A stretch of DNA of 64,000 nt from Blastocatellia bacterium (GTDB taxonomy: Bacteria > Acidobacteriota > Blastocatellia > RBC074). Where the stretch lies: the NCBI GenBank assembly GCA_046331565.1, contig JAXLQP010000007.1:97634-161633 (forward strand). Reading direction: 5' to 3'. Each line of letters opens with the position of its first letter. Positions within the stretch are counted from its first letter, which is position 1. Below, piece by piece: positions 2,359 through 48,378 of the stretch. The translations under genes were made by a program, and so were the position numbers. The notes beneath the pieces are model-generated. The model did not search any database. It saw only the letters and a list, made by a program, of their open reading frames with translations, and was not told the DNA's origin.

Positions 2359-2393
2359 ACCTGCGGTGAAACCGAAACAGGCTTTCCCGATTC

Positions 2394-2430
2394 AAAGCCG
2401 CTGCCCGGATTCATTTCCGGCAGCGGCTTT
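2394..2430 (+). terminator. Rho-independent terminator
   Basis: AAAGCCGCTGCC...GGCAGCGGCTTT GC-rich stem with T tail, about 35 nt after the stop at 2358. Confidence 0.75.
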
Positions 2431-2537
2431 GTGCTGACGCTGGCAACGCTGCGGCTGATTCGCTATCATCGCGCTCCTGTTTACCGCTGCTCATGAACGC
2501 TTCAGCAAACGACTCAGGCTCCGGGTGATTCACGATC

Positions 2538-4748
2538 ATGAACTGTCGCTTCAGCAGACCATCCCTTCATCTCATTCTGTTGCTGGTGTTCGCGGCTTTG
2601 TGCTGTCTGCCGATTGCGGCTGATGACAGAATGATGAAGCTGCCTGTTTTTACCAGAGCCGCTGAAAAATCTGACTGGCTGCTCGGCAAAGTCACGACGC
2701 GGGCGCAGGTCTGGCGCAATCAGCAGGGCACTGAACTCATTCTGAGCAATGGCCTGACAGCCCGCACGATTCGCCTCGCGCCGAATGCCGCGACGGTGGC
2801 TTTTGACAACCTGGTGACTGGTGAATCGCTCGTGCGCGCCGTCGCACCCGAAGCCGTGCTGGAAATCAACGGTAAGAATTATGCCGTCGGCGGGCTGACC
2901 GGACAGCCGAATCTCGCTTACCTGCTGCCCGAATGGGTTGAAGCGATGAAGGCTGATCCGCGCTCATTTCAGTTTGAGCGCTTCGAGATCGGACAACCTG
3001 ACGCGCGCATGCAGTGGCCGCGCGTCCGACACTCAGCACAGACCGCGTGGCCGCCTGCCGGAGTAAAGCTGACGTTGTGGTTTGCGCCGCCGAAGGAACT
3101 GCCTGCCGGTTTGCGCGTCGCGGTGCATTACGAACTTTATGACGGCCTGCCGCTGCTCGGTAAATGGCTCACCGTTCACAACGGCAGTCAGCAATCAGTC
3201 AGGCTCAACACTTTCAGAGTTGAAGTGCTGCGCCTGGTCGAAACGGAATCGCACGTTGAGTTCAGCCCCGAATGGCTCAGGCCGAATCTGACGGTCGTGA
3301 CCGATTACACTTTCGGCGGCATGTCGCAGACCAATTCAAACCGCACGGTTTACCTGGAGGCCGACCCTGATTACAAAACGCAGGTCAATTACGATCTGAA
3401 AACGCCCTGCCTGCTCGAAGTCAGGCCGCCGCTGGGGCCTGACGCTGACATTGCTGCCGGAACCGTGTTTGCGACGTTTCGCGCCTTTGAGCTGATGCAC
3501 GACGACACCGACCGCGAGCGGCACGGGCTGGCCGAAAGAAAAATGTACCGGACGCTGGCGCCCTGGACGACTGAAAATCCGGTGATGATGCACCTCACTT
3601 CGACTGATCCGCAGGTGGTTTATCCCGCGCTCGATCAGGCTGCGGAATGCGGCTTTGAAATGGTCATCATCAGCTTCGGCAGCGGCTTCAAAATGGAAGA
3701 CACTGCTGACGCGAACATCGCAAAGTTTCGCGCCTTTCGTGAATACGCGGCAAAAAAGGGAATCGAACTCGGCGGTTATTCGCTGCTGGCGAGCCGTCAC
3801 ATCAGCGATGAAGACGATGTCATCAATCCGAAAACAGGGCGGCCCGGCGAGGCGATTTATGGCCATTCGCCGTGTCTGGAAAGCGCGTGGGGCCACCAGT
3901 ATTTCGCGCAGCTCAAAAAATTCATCACTGAAACCGGCTTCAATCTGCTCGAACACGACGGCAGCTATCCGGGCGATGTGTGCGCTTCGACAAAGCATCC
4001 TGGTCATCGCGGGCTGAACGATTCGCAATGGAATCAGTATCAGCGCATCGCTGAATTTTATCGGTGGTGCCGCGAGCGCGGAGTTTATCTGAACGTGCCG
4101 GACAGTTATTTTCTGGCCGGGTCGAACAAGACCGGCATGGGTTACCGCGAAACCAACTGGTCGCTGCCCCGCGAGCAGCAGCACGTGCACACGCGCCAGA
4201 ATTTATTTGACGGCACGTGGCAGAAAACTCCGTCAATGGGCTGGATGTTTGTCCCGCTGGTGCAATATCAGGGCGGCGGCGCGGCAGCGACGATTGAACC
4301 GCTGCGCGAACATCTGACCGATTACGAAATGCACCTCGCCAATAATTTCGGTTATGGCGCGCAGGCGTGCTGGCGCGGCCCGCGACTTTACGACAGCCCC
4401 GAAACAAAGGCGGTGGTCAGCAAATGGGTGCAGTGGTTCAAAAAGCACCGTGACATTCTGGAATCGGATGTGATTCATGTCCGTCGCGCCGATGGCCGCA
4501 ACCTGGACTGCATTCTGCACGTCAATCCGGCGCTGCCGGTCAAAGGCCTGGCGATGGTTTACAATCCGACCGACCGCGAACTGGAACAGGAAATCACGCT
4601 GCCGCTTTATTACACCGGCCTTGATCGTGAGGCTCAGGTGGCCGAACAGGACAGGCCGGCGGCGAGGATGAAGCTGGATCGTGAATATCGCATCACGATT
4701 CGTCCGAAGGTTGCCGCCAGGTCGCAGACGTGGTTTGTCATTCGCTGA
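2538..4748 (+). CDS. Secreted glycoside hydrolase, alpha-galactosidase-like (clan GH-D-like TIM barrel)
   Basis: 736 aa with signal peptide, an N-terminal beta-rich domain, a LLEHDGSYPGD segment resembling the GH27/36 nucleophile region and a C-terminal beta domain. Family assignment is from recall only. Confidence 0.55.
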   Translation: MNCRFSRPSLHLILLLVFAALCCLPIAADDRMMKLPVFTRAAEKSDWLLGKVTTRAQVWRNQQGTELILSNGLTARTIRLAPNAATVAFDNLVTGESLVRAVAPEAVLEINGKNYAVGGLTGQPNLAYLLPEWVEAMKADPRSFQFERFEIGQPDARMQWPRVRHSAQTAWPPAGVKLTLWFAPPKELPAGLRVAVHYELYDGLPLLGKWLTVHNGSQQSVRLNTFRVEVLRLVETESHVEFSPEWLRPNLTVVTDYTFGGMSQTNSNRTVYLEADPDYKTQVNYDLKTPCLLEVRPPLGPDADIAAGTVFATFRAFELMHDDTDRERHGLAERKMYRTLAPWTTENPVMMHLTSTDPQVVYPALDQAAECGFEMVIISFGSGFKMEDTADANIAKFRAFREYAAKKGIELGGYSLLASRHISDEDDVINPKTGRPGEAIYGHSPCLESAWGHQYFAQLKKFITETGFNLLEHDGSYPGDVCASTKHPGHRGLNDSQWNQYQRIAEFYRWCRERGVYLNVPDSYFLAGSNKTGMGYRETNWSLPREQQHVHTRQNLFDGTWQKTPSMGWMFVPLVQYQGGGAAATIEPLREHLTDYEMHLANNFGYGAQACWRGPRLYDSPETKAVVSKWVQWFKKHRDILESDVIHVRRADGRNLDCILHVNPALPVKGLAMVYNPTDRELEQEITLPLYYTGLDREAQVAEQDRPAARMKLDREYRITIRPKVAARSQTWFVIR

Positions 4749-4772
4749 AGGCGGCACGCAACGGAGGAGCAG

Positions 4773-5165
4773 ATGGCTGAAAGACAGCACTATTCATCAG
4801 GCACGAAATGGGAGCCGATAGTTGGTTATTCGCGCGCCATTCGCATCGGCAGCCAGGTCTTTGTGACCGGCACGACCGCGACGAATGAACAGGGCGAAAT
4901 CGTCGGCGTCGGTGACGCTTACGCACAGACGGTGCAGGTGATTCGCAATATTGAAAAGGCCCTGAACGCGCTCGGCGCAACGCTGAATGATGTAGTTCGC
5001 ACGCGCCTGTTCGTCACCGACATTTCGCGCTGGGAAGAATACGGACGGGCGCACGGTGAATTCTTCCGCGACATCAGGCCCTGCGCCACGATGGTCGAAT
5101 GCAGCCGCCTGATTGACGCCCGAATGCTGATTGAAATCGAAGCAGATGCTGTTATCAGTGGTTAG
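4773..5165 (+). CDS. RidA/YjgF/UK114 family protein
   Basis: [14 protein letters not shown]...FVTGTTA...[11 protein letters not shown]...[12 protein letters not shown]...[19 protein letters not shown] upstream. Confidence 0.9.
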
Positions 5166-5255
5166 TGGTTAGTGGTCAGTGGTTAGTGAAGAGTACGAGT
5201 AATCATCGGCCTCTCCACTTTCCACTAACCACTAACCACCAGCCACTAACCACTA
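5157..5255. repeat. Inverted pair of heptamer tandem arrays, (AGTGGTT)n ... (CCACTAA)n
   Basis: Four AGTGGT[T/C] units at 5157-5184, then a spacer, then CCACTAA CCACTAA CCACCAG CCACTAA CCACTA at 5222-5255. Confidence 0.9.
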
Positions 5256-5262
5256 TCCCGCT

Positions 5263-6303
5263 ATGTTACTTTCAGAATTCATTCGCCGGATGCCGAAGGT
5301 TGAACTGCACGTTCACCTGGAGGGTTCGATTCAGCCGGAAACGCTGCTGGAACTGGCGCGGCGCAATCAGGTTGAACTGCCCGCGCAGACGGTTGAGGGC
5401 TTGCGCGAATGGTATCGGTTCCGCGACTTCGCGCACTTTATTGAAGTTTACATTGCCATCAGCCGGTGCATCTGCACGCCGGACGATCTGGAACTGATTG
5501 CGCAGGAATTTCTGCGCGGGCAGGCGGCGCAGAACATTCGTTACAGCGAAGTCACCTTTACGCCTTACACTCATTACGCCTTCAACCGGCACATTGAGTT
5601 TGCCGATCAACTGGCTGCAATCAACCGTGCGCGGGCGTGGGCTGAACGCGAACTCGGTGTGACGATGGGGCTGGTGACCGACATTGCGCGCAACGTGCAG
5701 CCGGTCGCACACGGGCTGCTGGTGGCTGAATGGGCGATCAGCGGAAAGGATCAGGGCATCGTGGCCTTCGGCCTGGGCGGGCCTGAAATCGGTTATCCGC
5801 CGGAATTGTTTGCTGAAGCGTTTGCCCGCGCCCGCGCTGCCGGATTGCCCGGCGTGCCGCACGCAGGCGAAACGGTCGGCCCTGAAAGTATGTGGGGCGC
5901 AATTGATTCACTACAGGCCGTGCGCCTTGGTCACGGCGTGCGTTGTCTTGAAGACGCGAAGCTGGTTGAAACGTTGCGCGAGCGTCAGATTCCGCTCGAA
6001 GTCTGCCCGACGAGTAACATCTGTCTCGGCGTGTTTCCGTCGCTTGAACTGCATCCGCTGCCGCGACTGCTTGAGGCCGGGCTGTATGTGACGATCAATT
6101 CCGATGACCCGCCGATGTTCAATACGACGCTGACCGATGAATACCTGAAGATTGCCGATGCGTTCGGTTTCGACCAGCAGACGATTGAACAACTCGTGAT
6201 GAACGGCGTGCGCGCTGCGCTGCTGCCCGCTGAACGCAAAGCTGAAATGGAACAGCAGTTCCGAACTGAACTGGACAGTTTGCAGCGCGAACTTTTCAGT
6301 TAG
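5263..6303 (+). CDS. add: Adenosine deaminase
   Basis: PKVELHVHLEGS, HAGE, RLGHGV, LEVCPTSN and TINSDDP metal-dependent deaminase motifs. Confidence 0.9.
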   Translation: MLLSEFIRRMPKVELHVHLEGSIQPETLLELARRNQVELPAQTVEGLREWYRFRDFAHFIEVYIAISRCICTPDDLELIAQEFLRGQAAQNIRYSEVTFTPYTHYAFNRHIEFADQLAAINRARAWAERELGVTMGLVTDIARNVQPVAHGLLVAEWAISGKDQGIVAFGLGGPEIGYPPELFAEAFARARAAGLPGVPHAGETVGPESMWGAIDSLQAVRLGHGVRCLEDAKLVETLRERQIPLEVCPTSNICLGVFPSLELHPLPRLLEAGLYVTINSDDPPMFNTTLTDEYLKIADAFGFDQQTIEQLVMNGVRAALLPAERKAEMEQQFRTELDSLQRELFS

Positions 6304-6338
6304 CTCAGATTTCAGATCAGTGCACGCGAGCCGCAAGC

Positions 6339-6451
6339 GTTGCGCGATTTGCCAGAATCGCGCCGCATCCGCTATCAGTTCGTTACGTAAGCCGCGCGAT
6401 ACTGGCAAATCGCGCAACACTTTTTGAAGCGATTCTGGCAAATCGCGCAAC
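6339..6451. repeat. REP-like palindromic element, three copies of GCGAT[T/A]CTGGCAAATCGCGCAAC
   Basis: One inverted copy at 6339-6361 and direct copies at 6396-6418 and 6429-6451. The same element occurs at 17411-17491. Confidence 0.85.
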
Positions 6452-6474
6452 ATTTTTTGAAAGAGAATTACCAC

Positions 6475-8802
6475 TTGAATCAGGCTGTCATTATTCGTTG
6501 TTTTAGCTGTCTTGCCCTGCTGATCGTCTGCCTGGTTGCGCCGCTTCGTGCGCGGGCAGAGGACGGAAAAGGCAGCGATCCGGTTGACCCGAAGCCAAGT
6601 CTGGCGCTGCCGAAGGTTGAGCGCGCGCCGACGCTCGAAGACTTTCTGGAGATGAAACCGGGCGGCGAATTTGAAGGCCGCCTGTCAAAGGCTGAAGGAT
6701 TTATTCAGCAGCGCCCGAAGGACGGCGAACCGGCTTCGCAGCGCACTGAGGCTTATTTCTGTTACGACGACAAAAACCTTTACGTCATATGGCTGTGCTT
6801 CGACACCGAACCCGAAAAGATCAGGGCGCGGATGGAACGGCGCGAGAATGCCTTTGATGATGACTGGGTTGAAATCACACTTGATACTTTTCGTGATCAG
6901 CGGCGCGGTTACGTGTTCTGGTCGAATCCGCTTGGCGTGCAGGCCGAAGCGATCTGGTCTGAAGATGCACAGGGCGGGCGGCAGCAGGGGCCGGACTTTT
7001 CCTTTGATACGGTCTGGTATTCGCGGGGTAAAGTGACCGACAAGGGCTATGTGGTCTGGATGCAGATTCCATTCAAGAGCCTGCGCTTTTCGAGCGCCTC
7101 GCCGCAATCGTGGGGAATGACGCTGCTGCGCGTGATTCCGCACGCAAGCAATGAATGGTCATACTGGCCGCGCGTGTCGAGTCGCGTGCAGGGGCGGCTG
7201 ACGCAGGCCGCCACTGTGACCGATCTCAATAACATTTCGCCGGGCCGCAATATTCAACTCATTCCTTACGGTTCGTTTCGTTCATTTCGCGCACTGGATG
7301 AACGCGACGCTGCCCGCCCGCGCTTTGTCAGCGACCGCGAATTTGATGGCGGCGTGGATGCCAAAATTGCATTGAAGGAAAACCTGGTGCTGGATGTCAC
7401 GGTCAATCCTGATTTCGCGCAGGTCGAATCGGATGAACCGCAGGTGACAGTCAATCAGCGGTTTGAAGTTTTCTTTCCTGAAAAGCGCCCGTTCTTTCTG
7501 GAAAATTCCGATTTCTTTCGCACGCCGATCAATCTGGTCTTTACGCGGCGCATTGCCGACCCGCAGTTCGGGGCGCGACTGACGGGCAAACTCGGTCGTT
7601 ATTCGCTTGGCGTGATGGCGATTGATGATCAGTCGCCGGGGCGCAGCGTGCTGCCGGGCGATGCGCTGTTCGGCAAACGCGCCATGTTCGGCATCGTGCG
7701 CGTCAACCGCGACATTCTGAAACAATCGTCAATCGGATTTATTTACACCGACCGCGAACTGGCGGGCAGTCATAATCGCGTCGGCGGCATTGACGGGCGC
7801 TTCCGGCTCAATTCCAACTGGGTGGCGCGCTTTCAGGCCGTGACGAGCGTGACAACGGAAGCTGATGGCAGCCGCCTCGCAGGCCCGGCCTATGATTTCA
7901 GCCTTGAACGCAGCGGGCGCAAGTTTCAGTACAACTTTCAATACAACGACCGCAGCCCCGGCTTTCGCGCGCTGACCGGATTCATTCCGCGCACCGATAT
8001 TCGTCACCTTCAGTCCACGATCAATTATCGCTTCCGGCCCGAAGGCCGGATTCTGACTTCGTGGGGGCCAAGGTTTAATCAGGAAGTGAACTTCGATCAC
8101 AGCGGTACGCGGCTGGACTGGTTTGTGACGCACGCGCTCAATTTTGAATTTACCGGACGCACGCAGGTCAGCGTCTTTCAGGGCGACAACCGTGAGCGAT
8201 TGCGCCCGCAGGATTTTTCAGGGCTGACGCGCAGCCTGGATTTTTCAAGTCCCTTCAGAGGCCTGGTGCTGAGTTCGTCCTATCTGCCGCAGGCGACGGT
8301 GCAGGCCGAATTATTTATTTATCCGGGCATCAACTTTGCGCCGCCCGCAGGCCGCGAACCGTTTCTGACCAATCGCTCGAATCTGAATCTGACGCTGACG
8401 CTGCGCCCGCTCAGGCCGCTGCGCGTGGACAATACTTACATTCTGTCGCGGGCTGTTGATCGTCCGACCGGAGCGAATATTTTCAATAACCATATCATCC
8501 GCTCGAAATTCAACTGGCAGTTCAGCCGTGAACTCTCGTTGCGCACCATCGTGCAATACAGCGCCGTGCTGGCCAATCCGTCGCTGACTTCCTTACAGAC
8601 GACGAAAAACTTCAATGCTGATTTTCTGGTGGCGTGGCAGCTCAATCCGGGCACGGCGCTCTATGTTGGTTACAACAGCAACCTGCAAAATCTCGATCTG
8701 ATTCAGACGCCGCTCGGCGCTGACATTACGCGTTACCCGAATCGCTTCATCAATGACGGAAAGCAGTTATTCATCAAACTGTCGTGGCTGTTCAGGCTGT
8801 AG
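6475..8802 (+). CDS. Outer-membrane protein with CBM9-like N-domain and DUF5916 beta-barrel
   Basis: Signal peptide, LDVTVNPDFAQVESD...FFPEKRPFFLEN motif and C-terminal FIKLSWLFRL beta signal. The ORF-track start (6424) lies inside a repeat, so TTG at 6475 is preferred. Confidence 0.75.
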   Translation: MNQAVIIRCFSCLALLIVCLVAPLRARAEDGKGSDPVDPKPSLALPKVERAPTLEDFLEMKPGGEFEGRLSKAEGFIQQRPKDGEPASQRTEAYFCYDDKNLYVIWLCFDTEPEKIRARMERRENAFDDDWVEITLDTFRDQRRGYVFWSNPLGVQAEAIWSEDAQGGRQQGPDFSFDTVWYSRGKVTDKGYVVWMQIPFKSLRFSSASPQSWGMTLLRVIPHASNEWSYWPRVSSRVQGRLTQAATVTDLNNISPGRNIQLIPYGSFRSFRALDERDAARPRFVSDREFDGGVDAKIALKENLVLDVTVNPDFAQVESDEPQVTVNQRFEVFFPEKRPFFLENSDFFRTPINLVFTRRIADPQFGARLTGKLGRYSLGVMAIDDQSPGRSVLPGDALFGKRAMFGIVRVNRDILKQSSIGFIYTDRELAGSHNRVGGIDGRFRLNSNWVARFQAVTSVTTEADGSRLAGPAYDFSLERSGRKFQYNFQYNDRSPGFRALTGFIPRTDIRHLQSTINYRFRPEGRILTSWGPRFNQEVNFDHSGTRLDWFVTHALNFEFTGRTQVSVFQGDNRERLRPQDFSGLTRSLDFSSPFRGLVLSSSYLPQATVQAELFIYPGINFAPPAGREPFLTNRSNLNLTLTLRPLRPLRVDNTYILSRAVDRPTGANIFNNHIIRSKFNWQFSRELSLRTIVQYSAVLANPSLTSLQTTKNFNADFLVAWQLNPGTALYVGYNSNLQNLDLIQTPLGADITRYPNRFINDGKQLFIKLSWLFRL

Positions 8803-8814
8803 TGGTAATTCAAA

Positions 8815-8952
8815 ACCAGCCACGAATGAACACAAATTGAAACGCAGCAAACAAGGAACGCAGGCGTCCCGCCTGCATGGTTTCAATCAAAGCGCCTTTT
8901 GCGGAAGTCATGCAGGCGGGACGCCTGCTCTCCTTGTTCACGTTCCTTGTTT
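8815..8952. repeat. Composite intergenic repeat: CACGAATGAACAC half-element plus a REP-like inverted repeat
   Basis: ACCAGCCACGAATGAACAC at 8815 is identical to 58491. A perfect 19-bp inverted repeat CAGGCGTCCCGCCTGCATG (8861-8879 / 8909-8927) has outer arms AAACAAGGAACG / CGTTCCTTGTTT. Confidence 0.8.
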
Positions 8953-8999
8953 TTGTGGCCTGAATAATAGTCGAACATTTTCTGAAGGAGGCTGACTGG

Positions 9000-10172
9000 A
9001 TGAAATCGCAATTGCGTGTGGCCCTGTGTTTACTGGTTGTTTTGCTGATGACGGTGAGTGTGGCGGCACAGACACTCAATGTCGAACGGCTGGCGGCGGA
9101 ACTGGAACCTGAAATCAGGCGGACGATGCAGGAAGGCAACATTCCGTCCTGCACGGTGGCGCTGGTGGCGGGTGATCGCATCATCTGGACGGGAGCTTAT
9201 GGTTACTCGAACGTGCGCGCCCAGGTTCCGGCAAAGACTGACACGGTCTATCTGATCGGCTCGACTTTCAAGGCCATGTCAACCGTCGCGCTGCTGCAAC
9301 TGATGGAGCAGGGCCGCTTCAAGCTTGATGATCCGGTCAGCCGCTATCTGACCGACTTCAAAATTCAGGGCGAAGACCCGCAGCAGCCTGTCACCTTTCG
9401 CCACCTGCTGACGCACACTTCGGGAATGCCTGCTGACTTCGGGCCGTTTCCGTTGTGGGGCGACCAGGCGCCGCCGAAGCTTGAGGATTATCTGAGCAGT
9501 TCGCTCAGAGTCACCGATGCGCCGCTCAAAAAGGTCGTCTATTCAAATATGGCCTATTCGCTCATCGGCTATCTGGTGCAGAAACTTTCCGGCGTGCCGT
9601 ACCGGCAGTACGTGCAGGAACATCTGTTCACGCCGCTGGAAATGAACAGCACTGTCTTTGCGATCACGCCTGAGATGGAAGAGCGGTTGTCAATTCCTTA
9701 TGTCTTTGACGCGGCGACAAAGAAACAGGTGCCGACGCAGCGGCTGCGCGCGGCAGTGTGGCCGGCGGGTCTGGTTTACGGCACTGTGACCGATCAGGCC
9801 AACTGGCTGATTGCGAATCTCAACAGCGGCACTTTCAAGGGACGGCAACTGCTCAGCGCCGAAACGCACAATCAGATGCTGACGAAGCAGTACCCGCAAT
9901 TCAAAGGGCCAATCGAAGAGTTGTGGGGTGGCGAACAGGCGGGCTTCGGGCTGACGTGGTGGGTTGAGGACAGAAACGGCGAACGGTTTTTCGCGCACAG
10001 CGGCAGCGTGCCTGGTTACACGGCCTTTCTGCTCGGCAATCGTGACCAGAAACTCGGCTTTGCCATTCTGACCAATGGCAACCGCGCGCACAAACACCTG
10101 ATTAAACTGGCCGACAAAGCGGTTGAGCTGCTCAGAGCGCATAAACAAAAGGCCGCCGCTTCAGGCCGGTGA
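9000..10172 (+). CDS. Serine hydrolase, beta-lactamase class C/AmpC-like family, secreted
   Basis: Signal peptide, SxxK (IGSTFK), LLTHTSG, YSN and HSG motifs. Confidence 0.9.
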
Positions 10173-10865
10173 CTGAGACCGTGCTTTATCCGGTTCACCC
10201 GGGCGCGTGACTGACTGCCGATCAGCCGCCCGTGCAAGCAGGTCGCGCACTTCGTCATCTGTCGTCTGCGTGAAATCTTCATACCACAATCCGACGGCAT
10301 AAAACGGTTCGGGCGTGAGGGCGCAGATGACCTCGTCCACTTCGTTTCTGAATTCATCGCAGGTCTGGCTCGCGGCGACCGGCACCGCAACAACGATTGC
10401 GGCGGGATGCTGTTCTTTAAGCGCCTGCGCTGCCGCGCGCATTGTTGAGCCGGTGGCCAGACCATCATCAATCAGAATCACCGTGCGGCCTTTGATCTCA
10501 GGCGCGGGGCGATCATCGCGGTAAGCTCGCTCGCGCCGTTCAAGTTCCTGCTGCTGCCGTGCTGCCGCCGCGTCAATTACGTCCGCCGGAATATGCAGGT
10601 ATTGCACGACATCCTGATTCAGCACGCGCACGCCACCTGAAGCTATGGCGCCCATCGCCAGTTCCTCGTGTCCGGGCACGCCCAGCTTGCGCACCAGAAA
10701 AACATCAAGCGGCGCCTGCAATGCCGCAGCGACTTCATACGCCACCGGCACCCCGCCGCGCGGCAACGCGAGTACCAGCACGTCAGGTCGCCTGGCGTAA
10801 GCCGTCAATCGCTGCGCCAGCAGCCGACCCGCTTCCGTTCGATTCCTGAATCTCTCAGCCATCAT
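10161..10865 (-). CDS. Phosphoribosyltransferase family protein (FRNRTEAG / [11 protein letters not shown] type)
   Basis: PRPP-binding loop [14 protein letters not shown], plus [17 protein letters not shown] and [17 protein letters not shown]. Confidence 0.9.
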
Positions 10866-10902
10866 TCTCCTTCTGCGCCTTCAGGGCCGCTGCCTGCGCG
10901 CC

Positions 10903-11859
10903 TCAACACAGATCGCTGAGTGATCCGGCGGTCAGGAAGCGGCGTATTGCGGCAGCCAGCAGCGGCGCGCTGGAAACCACATGAAGTTGCGGCCAGGGTT
11001 GAGCATGGCGCGGCACTGTGTCGGTCACGATAATTTCCTGCACGCCCGTCTCGCTTAGTCTTTCGCGCGCGCCGTCAACGAACAGGCCGTGCGTTGCTGC
11101 GACTTTAATTTCGGGTCGCGCCCCCGCACGTCGCAGGGCCGCCACACTTTCCACTATCGTGCCGCCGGTCGAAATCATGTCATCCACGATCAGGCACGAA
11201 CGGTCGCGCACATTGCCTGCAAGATGCGTCATCTCAAGCTCGGTTCCGCTCGCTCGCCGCTTGTGCAGCACCGCAAAGTCAGTGCCGAGTCGCTCAGCGT
11301 AAGCCATCGCCAGCTTTGCGCGCCCGACATCGGGCGAAACAATTACCGTATCGGGCGAACAACGCTGGCTGATTGCCTGACTCAGCACGGGCAGCGCCGT
11401 CAGGCTGTCCACCGGAATGCGGAAGAAACCTTCGATCTGTGGCGCGTGCAAATCCAGGGTGACCACATGACTGACACTGACGGCCTGAAGCAGTTCGGCC
11501 ACCATACTGGCTGTGATCGGTTCGCGGCGTGCCTGCCGTTTGTCAGAACGCGCGTAACCGAAGTAAGGAATGATCGCAGTCAGATGAGTTGCTGAAGCCC
11601 TGCGGCAGGCGTCGGCAAAGGCCAGCAGTTCAATCAGATGATCGTTGACCGGCGGCGAGGTGGATTGCACGAGAAAGACCTCGCGCCCGCGCACCGGTTC
11701 ATCAAGCCGCACGGAAAGCTCGCCATCCGGGAACCGTTCGACCGCACAGGCACCGAGCGGCGTGCCCAGTTCGGCAGCGATGGCGGCGGCCAGATCGGGG
11801 CTGGCCGTGCCGCCGAAAATGATGAAACGATCAGTCAGCTCGTGCGGGCTGCTGTGCAT
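10903..11859 (-). CDS. prs: Ribose-phosphate pyrophosphokinase
   Basis: RFPDGE..V, PYFGYARSDK, LDLHAPQIEGFF, SPDVG and IVDDMISTGGT. Start placed at ATG 11859; the ORF-track extension overlaps the upstream gene. Confidence 0.9.
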   Translation of the reverse strand: MHSSPHELTDRFIIFGGTASPDLAAAIAAELGTPLGACAVERFPDGELSVRLDEPVRGREVFLVQSTSPPVNDHLIELLAFADACRRASATHLTAIIPYFGYARSDKRQARREPITASMVAELLQAVSVSHVVTLDLHAPQIEGFFRIPVDSLTALPVLSQAISQRCSPDTVIVSPDVGRAKLAMAYAERLGTDFAVLHKRRASGTELEMTHLAGNVRDRSCLIVDDMISTGGTIVESVAALRRAGARPEIKVAATHGLFVDGARERLSETGVQEIIVTDTVPRHAQPWPQLHVVSSAPLLAAAIRRFLTAGSLSDLC

Positions 11860-11902
11860 CGGCTTTACCTTTCCTTCCCGCGCATCATCAATTGCCTTTC
11901 GG

Positions 11903-12220
11903 TCATCTGCTGCCCGCAGAAGATTTCCTGCCGCTCGTCGTTTCGCGGCTGACCAGCTTGCAGAAACGGCTCGGCTTGCCATCGGCTGTCTCATCCTGAT
12001 AAACGAAAGCCAGCCTGCTCTCCTCGAACTTCTCGAAAAATGCGTCCCAGGTGATCGCTTCCAGCGACTGTTCGCCGCTGTAGCCCGGAAAATCAATGCG
12101 CAAAACGCCCGGCTCGTCCTGATCGCCCGTGCGCCTGACCGTTGCCGGATGCCCGCCGCGAGCCTCTGCCCATTTCCTGATCTCGTGATGATTCGTCGTG
12201 GTTTTGCTTTCTCCTGCCAT
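11903..12220 (-). CDS. Conserved small hypothetical protein (TTTNHHEIRKWAEARGGHPA family)
   Basis: ATG 12220 with GGGAGAG RBS. The pattern TT.H.EIR.WAE.RGG.PA...LRIDFPG...I.WD.FF.KF...LAF.YQ is a recurrent bacterial stress-cluster protein (recall). Confidence 0.75.
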   Translation of the reverse strand: MAGESKTTTNHHEIRKWAEARGGHPATVRRTGDQDEPGVLRIDFPGYSGEQSLEAITWDAFFEKFEESRLAFVYQDETADGKPSRFCKLVSRETTSGRKSSAGSR

Positions 12221-12261
12221 GTTCTCTCCCTTCAAATCTCTCTTGTCATTTGCACCAGGCC

Positions 12262-12288
12262 GCCAGACGCGGGCGGGCCGCGTCTGGC
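12262..12288. other. Intra-operonic 11-bp stem-loop
   Basis: GCCAGACGCGG-GCGGG-CCGCGTCTGGC with no U tract. Confidence 0.6.
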
Positions 12289-12294
12289 AACTTG

Positions 12295-12849
12295 TCAGCC
12301 AGATGCGGGCCGCTGTGCAGTTTTTTCCGGCTGCTCCAGCACCTGCATCAGCAGCGGAACTGTGGTCACTGCTCCCACCAGCACGAGCGTCCACCCGACG
12401 GCCCGCCGCGTGTCGTCATCGAGCCTGCCAGCGAGGAGCAATCCCAGCCCGGCGCCGAGCATTCCGCGCGTGCCTGCGATGAGGGCGAGTTGTGGCAGGG
12501 TCAGTTCCCGCTTTTTCATCGTCCAGTTTCTTCCGGCGCTCTTCCAGGATCGGCCTGCCTGTCCGCCGGAACGGGATGCCTGCGCATTGTCAGGGTTCGT
12601 CCACTGCGTGAAGTTGGCGATCCCGGATTCACCGTGATCTTCGTAACCGGCAGCGCCACGCTCGCCCTGTCCCCACGAGGCCATCCCGTGCGTCCGGGCC
12701 TGAGGATCATCAGGCAGCGGGCCGGACATCGGGTAAACGCCCGATCTGCCCACCTCATCCGTGCGGCCCTGCCCGCCGCCCGGCAGCCCGCTCTCGCGCC
12801 TGCTTTCCTGTCCTCTCTGTGGCTCCTGTTGTTTCTGAGTTTTCATCAT
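12295..12849 (-). CDS. Hypothetical protein: hydrophilic N-half plus a two-TM C-half (possible fusion of two small genes)
   Basis: GGAGGAG RBS. The Gly/Gln-rich N-half contains GRTDEVGRSGVYPMSG. An internal Met starts MKKRELTLPQLALIAGTRGMLGAGLGLLLA. Confidence 0.65.
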   Translation of the reverse strand: MMKTQKQQEPQRGQESRRESGLPGGGQGRTDEVGRSGVYPMSGPLPDDPQARTHGMASWGQGERGAAGYEDHGESGIANFTQWTNPDNAQASRSGGQAGRSWKSAGRNWTMKKRELTLPQLALIAGTRGMLGAGLGLLLAGRLDDDTRRAVGWTLVLVGAVTTVPLLMQVLEQPEKTAQRPASG

Positions 12850-12872
12850 CTCCTCCCTTCAGTCGTTGCGGA

Positions 12873-13409
12873 TCAGCTTGTAATCTCGATCCGGCGGCGT
12901 TGTTCTTCGCGTTGCGGTGCGGGCATCGTGATTTCAAGCACACCATCACGGAAAGTGGCTTTTGCCTTCTCAGCATCAGTCCCTTCCGGCAGCGGGATGC
13001 TGCGATAGAAACTGCCGTAGCTGCGTTCGCTGCGATAGAAACCCTCGCGGTTCTCCTCGCGCTGCTGTTTGCGTTCGCCCTGAATGGTGAGCGCATTATC
13101 AGTGACATCTATTTTGACATCGTCTTTGTTCAGCCCCGGCAGATCAGCACGGACGATAAACTGCCCGCCCTGCTCGAAGGCTTCAATCTGCGGCGACCAG
13201 CCGCCGCGTCCGAATTCGCCCCAGCCGCGCGACATCAGCCGTCCTGGCCCGAAGCCGAAGTCTTCAAACACACGCTCCATTTCGTCAGCGAAGCGGCTCA
13301 TTAATGAAAATGGACTTGCCGACCAGTGCGCCATGCCTGGCGTTTCGCGGCGCGCCAGTCCCGCCGATTTTTCATCCGGTTGTTGTGTTGCTTCTCTTGC
13401 TTTAGCCAT
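12873..13409 (-). CDS. Small heat-shock protein Hsp20/alpha-crystallin
   Basis: WSPQIE, ADLPGL.KDDVKI, LTIQGER, ERSYGSFYRSIPLP and A.FRDGVLEI. Start ATG 13409 with AGGAGG RBS. Confidence 0.95.
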   Translation of the reverse strand: MAKAREATQQPDEKSAGLARRETPGMAHWSASPFSLMSRFADEMERVFEDFGFGPGRLMSRGWGEFGRGGWSPQIEAFEQGGQFIVRADLPGLNKDDVKIDVTDNALTIQGERKQQREENREGFYRSERSYGSFYRSIPLPEGTDAEKAKATFRDGVLEITMPAPQREEQRRRIEITS

Positions 13410-13425
13410 TGCTTTTCTCCTCCTT

Positions 13426-14139
13426 TCAAATCGAAGTTTTACTGAACTGATGCGGTTGTAACTGTGCGCGGAACCAGTCCGCCGCCAGGCGCGCCACCGC
13501 TTCAAGCGCGCCCGGTTCTTCAAACAAATGCGTCGCGCCGGGAATGATTTTCAGCTCTTTTTCACACTGAAGCTGCGCAAAGGCCGCTTCATTCAGCTCA
13601 ATCACCGGTTCATCGCGTCCGCCGACAATCAGCAGGGTCGGCGCTGTGACCTGCGGCAGCGCCGCGCCCGCCAGATCAGGCCGCCCGCCGCGCGAGACCA
13701 CTGCCCCGATTTTTTCGCCCAGACGCGCCGCAGCGACGAGCGCCGCCCCGCCGCCCGTACTCGCGCCGAAAAAGCCCGGACGCAGATTCATTCGTCTGCC
13801 CGGGAACGCCTGTTCGCTTTCCAGCCAGCGCACAGCGTCTGCAAGACGATCAGCCAGCAGGCTGATGTCAAAGCGCAGATGGCGCGTATAAATATCCACT
13901 GACTCTTCTTCTGCGGTCAGCAGGTCGAAAAGCAGCGTTCCGATGCCTGCTTCACGAATGACGCGCGCCACGTACTGATTGCGCGGACTGTGACGACTGC
14001 TGCCGCTGCCGTGAGCGAAAAGCACCAGGCCGCTCGCCTGGTGCGGAATACTCAACTCACCCTCAAGCCGCGCGCCGCCTGATGGAATCTGCACACTCTG
14101 CTGCCAGTCACCTGTCGGTTCATTGCTGGTCTGTTGCAT
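13426..14139 (-). CDS. Dienelactone-hydrolase-like alpha/beta hydrolase
   Basis: LFAHGSGSSRHSPRN, GFFGASTGGGAAL, VVSRGGRPDLA and PGATHLFEEPG. GAGGGAGG RBS. Confidence 0.9.
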   Translation of the reverse strand: MQQTSNEPTGDWQQSVQIPSGGARLEGELSIPHQASGLVLFAHGSGSSRHSPRNQYVARVIREAGIGTLLFDLLTAEEESVDIYTRHLRFDISLLADRLADAVRWLESEQAFPGRRMNLRPGFFGASTGGGAALVAAARLGEKIGAVVSRGGRPDLAGAALPQVTAPTLLIVGGRDEPVIELNEAAFAQLQCEKELKIIPGATHLFEEPGALEAVARLAADWFRAQLQPHQFSKTSI

Positions 14140-14243
14140 GGCTTAATCCTCCCTCAGCCTTGTTTCATGATCTGCCTGTGCCCGCAACTGAAAATCACGA
14201 ACAAGCAGGGAATGATGAACGGGAGAACCTGTATCTGAAAGCT

Positions 14244-14259
14244 TGCAAGGAGAGTGCCA
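14244..14259 (-). promoter_or_regulatory. Sigma54 (-24/-12) promoter for the hydrolase-hsp20-prs-PRTase operon
   Basis: Minus strand reads TGGCAC-TCTCC-TTGCA (GG-N10-GC), about 105 nt upstream of ATG 14139. Confidence 0.85.
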
Positions 14260-14414
14260 GTTGCGTGAAGCGCGCGGTCAGGCTGCGGACTGGAGCGGCA
14301 GGAATCGGCCTGCATCTTTCCTGCGCGGCGTTCTTCCGGCGCGGCTGATTGTTGTTTTCGCGCTCATCGTCAGTGCGGGTGATGGTGGCTGTGGCGCGCG
14401 GTGATCGGCGATTG

Positions 14415-14430
14415 TGGCATCGCCTTTGCT
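14415..14430 (+). promoter_or_regulatory. Sigma54 promoter for the YbhB-family gene
   Basis: TGGCAT-CGCCT-TTGCT, divergent from the 14244 site. Confidence 0.75.
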
Positions 14431-14649
14431 GTCAAAAGCAGTACATCATCCTGCCCACTGACAAGAGCTGAGTTGCCCGGCTGACACAGGAAGCGTCAGC
14501 AGAACCGAACAGGGCTTTTCGCTCAGCAGAGATGATGATGAAACCGCGTGGCGTGACCGATGCGTGATGGCAACCGCGCCGCGCTGTCTGACTTCAACGC
14601 CCCGGTTATTCCGACCTGCCGGGCGATGTTTGCTCGGAGGAGGTAAGTT

Positions 14650-15141
14650 ATGGACATTCAAATTCTCAGTAATGCTTTTGCGGAAGGCGCATCCATCCCG
14701 GTGCAATACACCTGCGATGGCGACAACATTTCGCCGCCGCTGCGCTGGGGCAGCCTGCCGAAGGATTCGCAAAGCCTCGCGCTGATCTGCGAAGACCCGG
14801 ATGCGCCTTCCGGCGTCTTCACACACTGGCTGATCTTCAACCTGCCGCCGCTGGTTTCGAGCCTGCCTGAAGCGATGCCTGCGAGCGACACGCTGGAAGA
14901 AACCGGCGCGGTGCAGGGACGCAACGATTTTCATGAAATCGGCTATGGTGGCCCGTGTCCTCCGCCGGGCAGTCCGCATCGCTATTTCTTCCGTCTGTTT
15001 GCGCTCGACACCCGGCTGCAACTGTCGGCAGGCGCGAGCAAACAGGAACTGGAGCGCGCGATGCAGGGGCACGTCCTGGCGACAGGGCATCTGATGGGAA
15101 CTTATCAGCGTCGTGCGGGGCAGGCCGTCCGACACCGCTGA
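14650..15141 (+). CDS. YbhB/YbcL family (PEBP/Raf kinase inhibitor-like) protein
   Basis: YTCDG.NISPPL.W, LICEDPDAP, FTHWL, YGGPCPP and HRYFFRLFALD. GGAGGAGG RBS. Confidence 0.93.
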   Translation: MDIQILSNAFAEGASIPVQYTCDGDNISPPLRWGSLPKDSQSLALICEDPDAPSGVFTHWLIFNLPPLVSSLPEAMPASDTLEETGAVQGRNDFHEIGYGGPCPPPGSPHRYFFRLFALDTRLQLSAGASKQELERAMQGHVLATGHLMGTYQRRAGQAVRHR

Positions 15142-20639: not shown

Positions 20640-20737
20640 ACGCGCATCTTACGATCTCAGCGGCAGGCAATCTATCCGGTTTCTGCACTGCAATTCGGGC
20701 AGTGAGGCAGAAAGGAGCGGGCAGTTGAGAATTGAAA

Positions 20738-21397: not shown

Positions 21398-21468
21398 AAC
21401 TGACCTCCTGCCGCGCATTATATCGCTGGCGGACAGGGCGAAGCGACTTTCATGATTCGACGCCGGAA

Positions 21469-22281: not shown

Positions 22282-22366
22282 GGGGCAAAGAGGTTGATTC
22301 GGGGCGTTTTCTGTTTCAGTTCTCGAACGAAATTGAACCGGGCGCGTCTGCTTTTATTTGTCAGTG

Positions 22367-24355: not shown

Positions 24356-24419
24356 AATTTTCAATAGCTGACAAGTCACCAGACAAGCAGCTCAATCCGG
24401 ACAGAAGTCTCCGGTCTGT

Positions 24420-24637: not shown

Positions 24638-24641
24638 ATAT

Positions 24642-31966: not shown

Positions 31967-31982
31967 TGGCACAGTGGTTGCT
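31967..31982 (+). promoter_or_regulatory. Sigma54 promoter of the leader-RND operon
   Basis: TGGCAC-AGTGG-TTGCT, 63 nt upstream of ATG 32045. Confidence 0.85.
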
Positions 31983-48362: not shown

Positions 48363-48378
48363 TGGCACCGCGCTTGCA
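48363..48378 (+). promoter_or_regulatory. Sigma54 promoter for the kinase/NtrC operon
   Basis: TGGCAC-CGCGC-TTGCA, about 45 nt upstream of TTG 48424. Confidence 0.85.

What the first reader, a model, noticed from the sequence alone, without database searches (positions are those of the whole stretch)
10161..14259. Sigma54 operon resembling the mycobacterial dormancy gene set (hydrolase, Hsp20, two unknowns, Prs, PRTase)
Seen: six co-oriented genes with gaps of 16-75 nt behind a perfect sigma54 site. Known from recall: the M. tuberculosis DosR regulon pairs hspX (Hsp20) with Rv2030c and includes Rv0571c, both of which carry this FRNR..AG/LPRGG PRTase-like domain, and Rv0571c fuses it to a similar alpha/beta hydrolase. 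Here the two domains are separate genes bracketing a Prs that makes the PRTase substrate PRPP. Inference: an uncharacterised PRPP-dependent stress or dormancy pathway under sigma54 control.
Basis: partly seen in the sequence, partly recalled or inferred. Interest (0 to 1): 0.62.

Follow-up and report, generated by a model that had tools for sequence, protein, structure and literature searches.

The report
Sigma-54 stress operon with orphan PRTase-hydrolase pair
An acidobacterium carries a six-gene, sigma-54-driven stress operon built around a widespread enzyme pair of unknown function (a phosphoribosyltransferase and a serine hydrolase), the same pair that occurs fused in dormancy gene islands of a Rhodococcus (Mycobacteriales), and here it sits next to its own extra PRPP synthase, which suggests the orphan enzyme really uses PRPP.

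Summary
On the minus strand, a perfect sigma-54 site (14259-14244) lies 104 nt before six co-oriented genes with 16-74 nt gaps. The genes are a Ser-type alpha/beta hydrolase, Hsp20, two unknowns, a class I Prs and a TT1426-type PRTase.

The core is the PRTase-hydrolase pair. The two are linked in 46 of 80 loci from many phyla and co-occur in Acidobacteriota (odds ratio 47, p 8e-20). In Rhodococcus sp. DK17 (Mycobacteriales) they are fused in a 450-aa protein next to Hsp20, CBS and USP genes. The same PRTase domain is also fused to erythromycin-esterase-like domains, which is the composition published for Rv2030c.

The Prs is a rare second copy, found in 5 of 401 phylum genomes; the housekeeping prs lies elsewhere. 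Nearly every member of this Prs clade sits beside PRTase, hydrolase, Hsp20 or the small membrane module.

Sigma-54 control is lineage-specific but real. The site is conserved in a sister species, and the genome's second PRTase copy also has a perfect site.

The chemistry is still unknown. I could not compare directly with the M. tuberculosis sequences, and the tool for finding sequencing runs was closed. Verdict: a new variant of a known but uncharacterised dormancy-type module, of moderate interest.

The parts
14244..14259 (-). Sigma-54 (-24/-12) promoter element TGGCACTCTCCTTGCA
   Evidence: Perfect match to TGGCAC-N5-TTGCW. It lies 104 nt upstream of the first ATG. It is conserved in sister genome G002 as TGGCACTCGCCTTGCA. 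It is one of 24 perfect sites genome-wide, against about 8 expected.
14140..14480 (-). Conserved leader and upstream region of the operon (possible activator-binding region, not defined)
   Evidence: 83% identical to G002 across 360 nt. No inverted repeat was detected, so no UAS could be assigned.
13426..14139 (-). Alpha/beta hydrolase of the 'dienelactone hydrolase-like' 2o2g family (237 aa)
   Evidence: Motifs: HGSGSS 43-48, nucleophile elbow GASTG 125-129 (Ser127), RGGRPD 150-155, GATHLFEE 201-208. Pfam DLH 29.4 bits. PDB 2o2g E 6e-79. The motifs are at least 95% conserved in 42 homologs. It is linked to the PRTase in 46 of 80 loci.
12873..13409 (-). Small heat-shock protein (Hsp20/alpha-crystallin, 178 aa)
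   Evidence: PF00011 at 92.6 bits. 90% identical in G002. 40% identical over the crystallin domain to the Hsp20 that follows the Rhodococcus fusion.
12295..12849 (-). Unknown 1 (184 aa): a fusion of two small modules that also occur separately, a soluble N-module (aa ~5-80) and a 2-TM C-module (aa ~110-175)
   Evidence: No Pfam, NCBIfam or PDB match. 1248 representative proteins match, mostly one module only. Hydrophobic segments at 121-141 and 150-172. The C-module lies just upstream of the PRTase in L008, L009, L012, L032 and L046, and upstream of prs in G227.
11903..12220 (-). Unknown 2 (105 aa): a highly conserved small cytoplasmic protein with no assigned family or solved relative
   Evidence: 1403 homolog clusters; aligned homologs are 61-80% identical; no Pfam. 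AlphaFold2 model pLDDT 80, pTM 0.71. No Foldseek hit in the PDB (best E 0.79). A homolog sits among BON, PRC, MscS and Cu-SOD genes.
10903..11859 (-). Accessory class I ribose-phosphate diphosphokinase (PRPP synthase, 318 aa)
   Evidence: TIGR01251 at 348 bits, NF002320 at 351 bits. Thermus Prs 7pn0 E 1e-77, aligned end to end, with the YARSDKR loop (102-108) and the DDMISTGGT PRPP loop (226-234) present in the window protein. Only 42% identical to the genome's housekeeping prs, which sits beside L25/pth/ispE. The clade is present in 5 of 61 relatives and 5 of 401 phylum genomes.
10161..10865 (-). TT1426-type (predicted) type I phosphoribosyltransferase (234 aa)
   Evidence: PF00156 at 76 bits. 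PDB 1wd5 E 5.7e-42 over the full length. Motifs: LPRGG 34-38, GHEELAMGA 65-73, PRPP loop [13 protein letters not shown] 129-141, WYEDF 194-198; largely conserved at 95% or more in 81 homologs. Homologs at 62-77% identity occur in many phyla.

Best explanation
This is a sigma-54-dependent stress (dormancy-type) operon. An unidentified enhancer-binding activator opens the -24/-12 promoter at 14259-14244, and one transcript encodes six proteins. The functional core is a conserved two-enzyme module. One enzyme is a TT1426-type type I phosphoribosyltransferase. The other is a Ser-His-Asp alpha/beta hydrolase. Elsewhere these two are adjacent genes or a single fused protein, and an erythromycin-esterase-like hydrolase can replace the alpha/beta hydrolase. 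In this lineage the module has recruited a second, dedicated PRPP synthase. Inferred mechanism: the accessory Prs makes PRPP from ribose-5-phosphate and ATP when the operon is induced. The PRTase transfers the phosphoribosyl group to an unidentified, probably heterocyclic, acceptor. The hydrolase cleaves an ester or amide bond, either to liberate that acceptor or to process the product. Hsp20 acts as a holdase expressed with them, and the two small proteins (one membrane-anchored) are accessory stress proteins. Shown: gene identities, the promoter match and its conservation, the co-occurrence, adjacency and fusion of PRTase and hydrolase, the paralogous status and specific neighbourhood of the Prs, and the stress-gene context in other bacteria. 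Inferred: co-transcription, the inducing signal, PRPP use, the acceptor and the order of the two reactions.
For: Anatomy and promoter. Promoter conservation in G002. A second PRTase paralog lies behind its own perfect sigma-54 site (chance about 2e-4 for a given gene). Further sites lie upstream of the PRTase in G020 (perfect), and, with one mismatch, upstream of a PRTase in G041 and of hsp20 in G289. RpoN and 37 activator candidates. Pair coupling: 46 of 80 loci. In the phylum, 28 genomes have both, 5 the hydrolase only, 39 the PRTase only and 329 neither, giving OR 47 and p 8e-20. Fusions. In sister species G002 the hydrolase is reduced to a remnant and the PRTase and unknown 2 are absent, while hsp20, unknown 1 and prs remain. 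Prs: it is a second copy, rare, and lies next to PRTase, hydrolase, Hsp20 or the unknown-1 C-module in 11 of 12 loci. Four of the 5 phylum genomes that carry it also carry the PRTase, against 17% background. Stress context elsewhere: BON, Hsp20, Crp/Fnr and USP neighbours; the Rhodococcus USP/Hsp20/CBS/tgs island; P. putida PP_3230 in a putatively FnrB-regulated cluster with Hsp20 and USP (PMC7801951); Rv2030c and Rv0571c in the DosR regulon (PMC4410610, PMC7753917). The catalytic-type motifs of all three enzymes are intact and conserved.
Against: No activator or UAS was identified. Prs (4/80) and Hsp20 (9/80) are linked to the PRTase in only a minority of loci, so the six-gene set is lineage-specific. 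One accessory-Prs genome (G227) has no PRTase, and in G199 and G318 the Prs is not next to the PRTase. G002 keeps the Prs without the PRTase in the operon, so the Prs may serve something besides this PRTase. No member of the PRTase family has a demonstrated activity. PRTase folds can also act as regulators (PyrR, PurR).
Confidence: 0.6

Rival explanations
1. The PRTase-fold protein is not an enzyme. It is a PRPP- or nucleotide-sensing regulatory subunit, like PyrR or PurR, that controls the partner hydrolase (alpha/beta or EreA-like). The accessory Prs would then set the level of the PRPP signal.
For: PRTase folds are known to be reused as regulators (NCBIfam hits to PyrR and GfcR models). The partner varies (DLH-like or EreA-like) while the PRTase stays 60-77% identical, as expected for a conserved sensor attached to different effectors. 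No activity is known for TT1426 (no functional paper found).
Against: The PRPP loop with its acidic pair and the PPi loop LPRGG are nearly invariant in 81 homologs, which is typical of catalysis. There is no nucleic-acid-binding domain. The hits to regulator models are weak (29-33 bits) and below their cut-offs.
Confidence: 0.13
2. The module modifies or detoxifies a xenobiotic or antibiotic. The esterase (alpha/beta or erythromycin-esterase-like) and the PRTase inactivate an incoming small molecule, and an efflux pump may remove it.
For: The alternative partner is an erythromycin-esterase-family domain. The genome's second PRTase copy is followed after 9 nt by genes that look, on reading their sequences, like a MacB-type ABC ATPase, a permease and an HlyD-like protein (not run against any family library), all behind a sigma-54 site. 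A beta-lactamase-family gene abuts the operon.
Against: MacB/FtsX-type pumps are very common in Acidobacteria (my knowledge), so adjacency may be chance. The neighbourhoods elsewhere are stress, hypoxia and dormancy genes (BON, USP, Hsp20, CBS, Fnr), not resistance genes. No PRPP-dependent resistance enzyme of this fold is known.
Confidence: 0.1
3. This is ordinary nucleobase salvage. The PRTase is simply another purine or pyrimidine salvage enzyme, Prs supplies PRPP, and the Hsp20 and hydrolase genes are neighbours without a functional link.
For: The PPi loop RGG and the PRPP loop resemble those of purine PRTases (weak NCBIfam hits to Hpt and Upp models). An adenosine deaminase gene lies 4 kb away.
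Against: The genome has at least 9 other PF00156 loci, including separate salvage-type PRTases. The distribution is patchy (17% of phylum genomes). Co-occurrence and fusion with a hydrolase are very strong. The hits to known salvage families are far below their cut-offs.
Confidence: 0.1
4. This is an anti-phage defence or toxin module of the Shosta (ShosT PRTase) type.
For: A PADLOC hit to ShosT (E 9.5e-8) and a weak hit to PsyrT.
Against: The hits cover only about 50 residues around the PRPP loop. No ShosA/DprA-like partner is present. None of the other five proteins hits any defence model. The context is stress genes in many phyla.
Confidence: 0.02

Closest known systems
M. tuberculosis DosR-regulon proteins Rv0571c and Rv2030c, the latter in the Rv2028c-Rv2031c (hspX) operon
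   Same: The literature describes Rv2030c as a PRT domain plus an erythromycin-esterase superfamily domain, encoded in the same operon as hspX (Hsp20), and annotates Rv0571c as a phosphoribosyl transferase (PMC4410610, PMC7753917). Their domains are 50-56% identical to the window proteins, and the second is followed by Hsp20.
   Different: Here the two domains are separate genes. A dedicated Prs and two small unknown proteins are added. Control is by sigma-54, not by a DosR-type response regulator. The M. tuberculosis sequences themselves were not available for direct comparison.
TT1426 of Thermus thermophilus (PDB 1wd5), 'hypothetical protein / predicted phosphoribosyltransferase'
   Same: Full-length sequence homolog (E 5.7e-42, residues 5-211). 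It is a type I PRTase fold with a PRPP loop. Its function is also unknown.
   Different: This is a structural-genomics entry and no acceptor is known. The window protein adds a C-terminal tail of about 20 aa.
PDB 2o2g, annotated 'dienelactone hydrolase' (structural genomics)
   Same: E 6e-79 over residues 14-226 of the window hydrolase; it is the same family.
   Different: True dienelactone hydrolases use a Cys nucleophile (established knowledge for Pseudomonas ClcD). This family has Ser in GASTG, so the name is probably not the function.
Low-oxygen stress islands: the P. putida PP_3230-PP_3238 cluster (putatively FnrB-regulated) and the B. cenocepacia lxa locus
   Same: They share a gene repertoire. 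In P. putida a PRTase-domain protein, Hsp20 and USP sit together (PMC7801951). The lxa locus has alpha-crystallin, BON-type 'phospholipid-binding' proteins and USPs (PMC3721108). The same neighbours turn up around this PRTase in 81 loci.
   Different: Those islands are Fnr/Anr- or lxa-motif-regulated and have no dedicated Prs. I did not verify that PP_3230 belongs to the same PRTase subfamily.
Class I ribose-phosphate diphosphokinase (Prs) of Thermus, E. coli and B. subtilis
   Same: About 50% identity and alignment end to end with the Thermus enzyme, with the recognised loop motifs present in the window protein; it passes the NCBIfam Prs cut-offs.
   Different: It is a second, sporadically distributed paralog clade. 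Members are 57-90% identical to one another across phyla and 41-47% identical to housekeeping Prs (one truncated hit 50%). It sits in stress modules rather than beside L25/pth/ispE.

Membership tests
Sigma-54-dependent promoter | -24 GG and -12 GC elements with TGGCAC-N5-TTGCW spacing, upstream of the gene and in the correct orientation | tested here: met
   Perfect match at 14259-14244 (-), 104 nt before the ATG. Conserved in G002.
Sigma-54-dependent promoter | The host encodes RpoN and bacterial enhancer-binding proteins | tested here: met
   One RpoN box (RRTVAKYR) on contig C10 and 37 GAFTGA-motif ORFs. One REC-Sigma54_activat-HTH_8 protein in the window at 50100-51479.
Sigma-54-dependent promoter | An upstream activator site and dependence of transcription on rpoN | not testable with these tools
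   No inverted repeat found.
Type I phosphoribosyltransferase (PF00156) | PRPP-binding loop: hydrophobic strand, two acidic residues, then a small-residue/Thr motif | tested here: met
   [13 protein letters not shown] at 129-141. Pfam 76.3 bits against a cut-off of 26.3. DDGLATG is at least 95% conserved in 81 homologs.
Type I phosphoribosyltransferase (PF00156) | Catalytic transfer of phosphoribosyl from PRPP to an acceptor | not testable with these tools
   No activity has been reported for any member (literature search).
TT1426-type 'predicted PRTase' subfamily | Full-length homology to TT1426 (PDB 1wd5) | tested here: met
   E 5.7e-42, query 5-211 against chain 2-204.
Rv0571c / Rv2030c (DosR-regulon PRTase-domain proteins) | PRTase domain homologous to that of the mycobacterial proteins | tested here: inconclusive
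   Tested only by proxy. Rhodococcus sp. DK17 fusions of 450 aa and 682 aa give 50% and 56% identity. Domain composition of the Mtb proteins comes from PMC4410610 and PMC7753917. The Mtb sequences could not be obtained.
Rv0571c / Rv2030c (DosR-regulon PRTase-domain proteins) | Single-chain fusion of the PRTase with a hydrolase or esterase domain | tested here: not met
   Here the PRTase (10865-10161) and the hydrolase (14139-13426) are separate genes 2.5 kb apart.
Rv0571c / Rv2030c (DosR-regulon PRTase-domain proteins) | Control by a DosR/DevR-type response regulator | not tested
   A sigma-54 promoter is present instead. No search for a Dev box was made.
Dienelactone hydrolase (PF01738) | Profile match above the Pfam cut-off | tested here: met
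   29.4 bits against a cut-off of 21. PDB 2o2g E 6e-79.
Dienelactone hydrolase (PF01738) | Cys nucleophile in a Cys-His-Asp triad, as in ClcD (established knowledge) | tested here: not met
   The nucleophile elbow is G-A-S-T-G with Ser127, conserved in at least 95% of 42 homologs. It is therefore a serine hydrolase of the DLH-like fold, not a bona fide dienelactone hydrolase.
Class I ribose-phosphate diphosphokinase | Pribosyltran_N domain plus C-terminal PRTase domain, PRPP loop and flexible catalytic loop; score above the curated cut-offs | tested here: met
   PF13793 at 160 bits. TIGR01251 at 348.5 against 113. NF002320 at 351 against 297. YARSDKR and DDMISTGGT are present and the protein aligns end to end with Thermus Prs.
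Hsp20 / alpha-crystallin | Alpha-crystallin domain | tested here: met
   PF00011 at 92.6 bits against a cut-off of 20.8, residues 79-177.
Shosta anti-phage system (ShosT PRTase toxin + ShosA) | Full-length ShosT match and an adjacent ShosA (DprA-like) gene | tested here: not met
   The PADLOC hit covers only residues 120-169 (30 bits). None of the other five proteins hits any PADLOC model.

The most novel reading that the evidence does not exclude
The accessory Prs, the orphan TT1426-type PRTase and its esterase partner together form a dedicated pathway. It would make or destroy a so far unknown phosphoribosylated small molecule during growth arrest, such as a dormancy metabolite, a signal or a storage nucleotide. 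The same chemistry would then be what the M. tuberculosis DosR-regulon proteins Rv0571c and Rv2030c do. The Prs linkage found here would be the first genomic evidence that these proteins are true PRPP-consuming enzymes.
Probability: 0.2. Interest if true: 0.8.

Novelty: new variant of a known kind. Interest (0 to 1): 0.5.

Why it matters
The PRTase-hydrolase pair is among the most conserved protein pairs of unknown function I have handled. Identity stays at 60-77% across Acidobacteriota, Planctomycetota, Chloroflexota, Proteobacteria, Cyanobacteria and Actinomycetota, and there is even a hit in a contig binned to a Methanolobus MAG. The published domain descriptions suggest that its fused forms include two members of the M. 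tuberculosis dormancy (DosR) regulon whose biochemistry has been open for more than twenty years.

This locus adds two usable facts. First, a distinct and rare Prs paralog clade lives almost only next to these genes, which argues that the PRTase really consumes PRPP and gives a reason to run PRPP-based acceptor screens. Second, the same module sits behind a different regulatory input in at least three lineages: sigma-54 here, putatively Fnr in Pseudomonas and DosR in mycobacteria. That marks it as a general growth-arrest function rather than a lineage-specific one. Named, cultivable and harmless hosts carry homologs, which makes the question directly testable: Thermus thermophilus (TT1426), Paracoccus denitrificans and Rhodococcus sp. 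DK17, and possibly P. putida (subfamily not checked).

Tried and rejected
1. Direct comparison with Rv0571c and Rv2030c was not possible. The 14 control genomes of the genome search do not include M. tuberculosis. The length-window trick (a 1151-aa concatenated query scored on residues 1-222) returned EreA-PRTase fusions from environmental bacteria but no mycobacterial entry in the top 120. Rhodococcus plasmid proteins served as a Mycobacteriales proxy instead.
2. The anti-phage defence reading was rejected because only the PRPP loop hits ShosT and PsyrT.
3. A search for an activator binding site (inverted repeats, 14230-14660) found nothing. No enhancer-binding protein lies next to the operon. 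The nearest is 36 kb away at 50100-51479, and I do not assign it to this promoter.
4. A scan for sigma-70 promoters and terminators found no promoter-like site, and terminator-like sites were not above chance.
5. Sigma-54 sites upstream of the module in other phyla: only 8 of 80 loci have a site with at most 1 mismatch anywhere within -5 to +3 kb, and most are probably chance. Sigma-54 control is therefore not a general property of the module.
6. The fold of unknown 2 gave a confident model but no PDB neighbour.
7. Literature searches for TT1426, COG1926 and functional work on this family found no characterisation.

Full report
**1. What is in the sequence**

The finding lies on the minus strand. 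ORF listing and family searches give six genes in transcription order:
- a 237-aa alpha/beta hydrolase at 14139-13426 (Pfam DLH, 29 bits)
- a 178-aa Hsp20 at 13409-12873 (PF00011, 93 bits)
- a 184-aa protein with no family at 12849-12295
- a 105-aa protein with no family at 12220-11903
- a 318-aa ribose-phosphate diphosphokinase at 11859-10903 (TIGR01251, 348 bits)
- a 234-aa type I PRTase at 10865-10161 (PF00156, 76 bits)

The gaps are 16, 23, 74, 43 and 37 nt. The PRTase stop overlaps, convergently, the end of a beta-lactamase-family gene (9000-10172).

The sequence TGGCACTCTCCTTGCA lies at 14259-14244 (-), 104 nt upstream of the first ATG. It matches the sigma-54 consensus perfectly. No sigma-70-like promoter was found anywhere in 9900-14700.

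**2. Is the sigma-54 site real?**

The assembly is 8.18 Mb in 12 contigs. From the taxa of the closest homologs it looks like an acidobacterium near Pyrinomonadaceae/Blastocatellia. It has one RpoN box and 37 GAFTGA-motif activator candidates.

Perfect TGGCAC-N5-TTGCW sites number only 24 genome-wide, against about 8 expected from composition. Three independent observations support function.
- In a same-genus genome (G002) the site and the whole leader are conserved. Identity is 83% over 360 nt and both hexamers are identical.
- The genome's second PRTase paralog (C1:2780402-2781064, 67% identical) has its own perfect site 55 nt upstream of its ATG. The chance of that for a given gene is about 2e-4.
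- A same-family genome (G020) has a perfect site about 90 nt upstream of its PRTase. Two same-class genomes have sites with one mismatch, G041 upstream of a PRTase and G289 upstream of an hsp20 that precedes its PRTase.

Outside this lineage such sites are rare around the module (8 of 80 loci, mostly in implausible positions). Sigma-54 control is therefore a lineage-specific wiring. I found no activator binding site and no adjacent activator gene. The nearest is an HK-NtrC pair at 48415-51479, which sits behind its own sigma-54 site.

**3. The core is a PRTase-hydrolase pair**

The PRTase has thousands of homologs. The closest solved structure is the functionally unassigned TT1426 of Thermus (1wd5, E 5.7e-42). 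The hydrolase matches the structural-genomics entry 2o2g at E 6e-79.

Eighty loci were fetched from GTDB species genomes with the PRTase as query. They include Acidobacteriota, Planctomycetota, Chloroflexota, Proteobacteria, Cyanobacteria, Verrucomicrobiota and Actinomycetota, plus a contig binned to a Methanolobus MAG. The hydrolase is present in 46 of them, usually directly adjacent and in either order. This is a lower bound, because many contigs are short.

In an even sample of 401 Acidobacteriota genomes, the PRTase occurs in 67 and the hydrolase in 33. Of those, 28 genomes have both, 5 have only the hydrolase and 39 have only the PRTase. This gives an odds ratio of 47 and a Fisher p of 8e-20.

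The pair also occurs as a single chain. The 450-aa 'alpha/beta family hydrolase' on pDK1 of Rhodococcus sp. DK17 matches the window PRTase at 50% identity (E 4e-59) and the window hydrolase at 53% (E 5e-67).

A natural experiment points the same way. In sister species G002 the flanks, promoter, hsp20, unknown 1 and prs are retained, at 84-90% protein identity for the three genes. The hydrolase is reduced to its last 44 codons, and unknown 2 and the PRTase are absent.

The catalytic-type motifs are nearly invariant in both families:
- Hydrolase: HGSGSS, GASTG (Ser127), RGGRPD and HLFEEPG.
- PRTase: [14 protein letters not shown] and DDGLATG, plus a less strictly conserved aromatic WY.DF segment.

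Because the nucleophile is Ser, the protein is not a true Cys-type dienelactone hydrolase.

**4. The resemblance to the mycobacterial dormancy genes**

I could not obtain the M. tuberculosis sequences (see Tried and rejected). The family-level claim nevertheless holds.

I used a concatenated query so that only proteins of 633 aa or more were candidates. This gave 2597 proteins carrying this PRTase domain. The best 120 are all erythromycin-esterase (PF05139) fusions of 636-724 aa (most about 669) at 68-76% identity. Rhodococcus sp. DK17 pDK2 encodes such a protein (682 aa, PRTase domain 56% identical) among USP and general-stress genes.

The literature describes Rv2030c as a PRT domain plus an erythromycin-esterase superfamily domain, in the hspX operon (PMC4410610). 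It lists Rv0571c as a phosphoribosyl transferase of the DosR regulon (PMC7753917). The Rhodococcus PRTase-hydrolase fusion is followed directly by Hsp20, then by CBS and USP genes and a wax-ester synthase, which is a dormancy-type island.

In acidobacterial genome G009 the unfused version reads PRTase, PGA_cap, EreA-like, CBS, Hsp20, Prs, all on one strand. Clustering the neighbours across 81 loci gave, on reading the cluster representatives (not all checked against family libraries), BON-like proteins (12 loci), Hsp20 (10), DUF5335-like proteins (6), Crp/Fnr regulators (5), Prs (5) and USP (3). In P. putida a PRTase-domain gene sits in a putatively FnrB-regulated cluster with Hsp20 and USP (PMC7801951). 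I did not verify that it belongs to this subfamily.

**5. The Prs**

The genome's housekeeping prs is on contig C1, beside genes that look like L25, pth and ispE. The operon copy is only 42% identical to it.

Among 61 relatives, all have a housekeeping-type Prs (41-47% identical, one truncated hit 50%). Only five carry the accessory type (62-100% identical). In the 401-genome phylum sample the figure is five again.

Seen from the PRTase, Prs linkage is rare (4 of 80). Seen from the Prs, it is specific. Of 12 accessory-Prs loci, 11 have a PRTase, the hydrolase, Hsp20 or the 2-TM module of unknown 1 within a few kb. The twelfth is cut by a contig end. The arrangements include:
- hsp20-prs-PRTase in a Solirubrobacterales MAG (L037)
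- hydrolase-prs-PRTase (L010)
- prs-PRTase (G041)
- hydrolase-prs (G199)

Four of the five phylum genomes with the accessory Prs also carry the PRTase, against a background of 17%. The Prs aligns end to end with Thermus Prs and passes the curated Prs cut-offs, and the recognised loop motifs are present in it, so it should make PRPP.

This is the best available genomic argument that the orphan PRTase uses PRPP. There are counter-examples: G227 has no PRTase, G002 keeps the Prs without the operon PRTase, and in G199 and G318 the genes are unlinked.

**6. The two unknowns**

Unknown 2 belongs to a very conserved family of proteins of about 93-105 aa. There are 1403 clusters, the aligned members are 61-80% identical, and 28 columns are invariant. 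There is no Pfam family. A confident AlphaFold2 model (pLDDT 80, pTM 0.71) has no PDB neighbour. One homolog sits among BON, PRC-barrel, MscS and Cu-SOD genes.

Unknown 1 is a fusion of two small modules that mostly occur separately. One is an N-terminal soluble motif. The other is a 2-TM mini-protein of about 65 aa. The mini-protein lies immediately upstream of the PRTase in five Pyrinomonadaceae loci.

**7. Interpretation**

The best-supported reading is a sigma-54-activated growth-arrest or stress operon. Its conserved core is a two-enzyme module of unknown chemistry, supplemented in this lineage by a dedicated PRPP supply, a holdase and small stress proteins.

I commit to PRPP-dependent phosphoribosylation of an unidentified heterocyclic acceptor, with the Ser hydrolase (or, in other genomes, the EreA-like esterase) acting just before or after it. 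My confidence is about 0.6 for the general statement and about 0.25 for that specific chemistry.

The rivals are a PRPP-sensing regulatory role for the PRTase fold, xenobiotic modification (suggested by the EreA partner and by the MacB-like pump behind the second paralog), ordinary salvage, and phage defence (rejected).

**8. Novelty and limits**

The pair and its dormancy association are known only as annotations, and no function has been published. What is new here is the split arrangement together with a dedicated Prs paralog clade and sigma-54 control. I class it as a new variant of a known, uncharacterised kind.

Several things are missing: expression data (the tool for finding sequencing runs was closed), the activator, the inducing signal, the acceptor and the direct comparison with M. 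tuberculosis.

Earlier notes from this scan had independently recorded PRTase-hydrolase pairs and fusions, and PRTase genes beside USP or EreA genes, in other genomes. They agree with what I measured here, but they rested on recollection and I do not count them as evidence.

Noticed in passing
G000 contig C1:2775790-2781135 (outside the window): The genome's second PRTase paralog (67% identical) has its own perfect sigma-54 site, TGGCACTTGTCTTGCT, 55 nt upstream. After a 9-nt gap it is followed by genes that read like a MacB-type ABC ATPase, a 787-aa FtsX-type permease and an HlyD-like protein. There is no hydrolase nearby.
   Followed up: partly
L088 (G002:C66) 1734-4207: The sister species keeps the sigma-54 promoter, hsp20, unknown 1 and prs in the same flanks. 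The hydrolase is cut down to its last 44 codons, and unknown 2 and the PRTase are missing. This is a natural deletion variant of the operon.
   Followed up: yes
window 31967-31982 (+), 48363-48378 (+), 54139-54124 (-), plus 14259-14244 (-): Four of the genome's 24 perfect sigma-54 sites fall in this one 64-kb window, where about 0.2 would be expected. The site at 48363 precedes a HAMP histidine kinase (48415-49989) and an NtrC-type activator (50100-51479), so that two-component system may be autoregulated.
   Followed up: partly
window 14650-15141 (+): A PEBP/YbhB-family gene lies divergently upstream of the operon. A PEBP gene also lies next to hsp20 near the accessory prs in G023 (L090 6814-7344), so the association may recur.
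   Followed up: partly
window 11903-12220 (-): Unknown 2 belongs to a very conserved family of small proteins (1403 clusters). It has no Pfam model, and a confident predicted fold has no PDB neighbour, so it is a candidate new domain family.
   Followed up: partly
L089 (G009:C112) 3969-9571: An alternative co-directional version of the module: PRTase, PGA_cap (CapA-like), erythromycin-esterase-like, CBS, Hsp20, accessory Prs. A PGA_cap-like gene also lies near prs in G023 (L090 7517-8539).
   Followed up: partly
window 10161-10172: The stop-proximal ends of the PRTase gene (-) and a beta-lactamase-family gene (9000-10172, +) overlap convergently by 12 nt. That leaves no room for a terminator between them.
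   Followed up: no
window 5263-6303 (+): An adenosine deaminase gene (purine salvage) lies about 4 kb from the operon and is syntenic in G002. The link to the PRTase is unclear.
   Followed up: no
window 19584-25841 (-): Unrelated neighbours: an Ada-type methyltransferase/AraC regulator, a carotenoid-synthesis-family protein, squalene-hopene cyclase and a DUF3810 protein.
   Followed up: no
L082 (NZ_JAUXNK010000075.1, labelled Methanolobus sp. MAG) 10001-11307: An adjacent PRTase-hydrolase pair (64% and 57% identical to the window proteins) on a contig binned to an archaeal methanogen MAG. This is either inter-domain transfer or a binning error.
   Followed up: no
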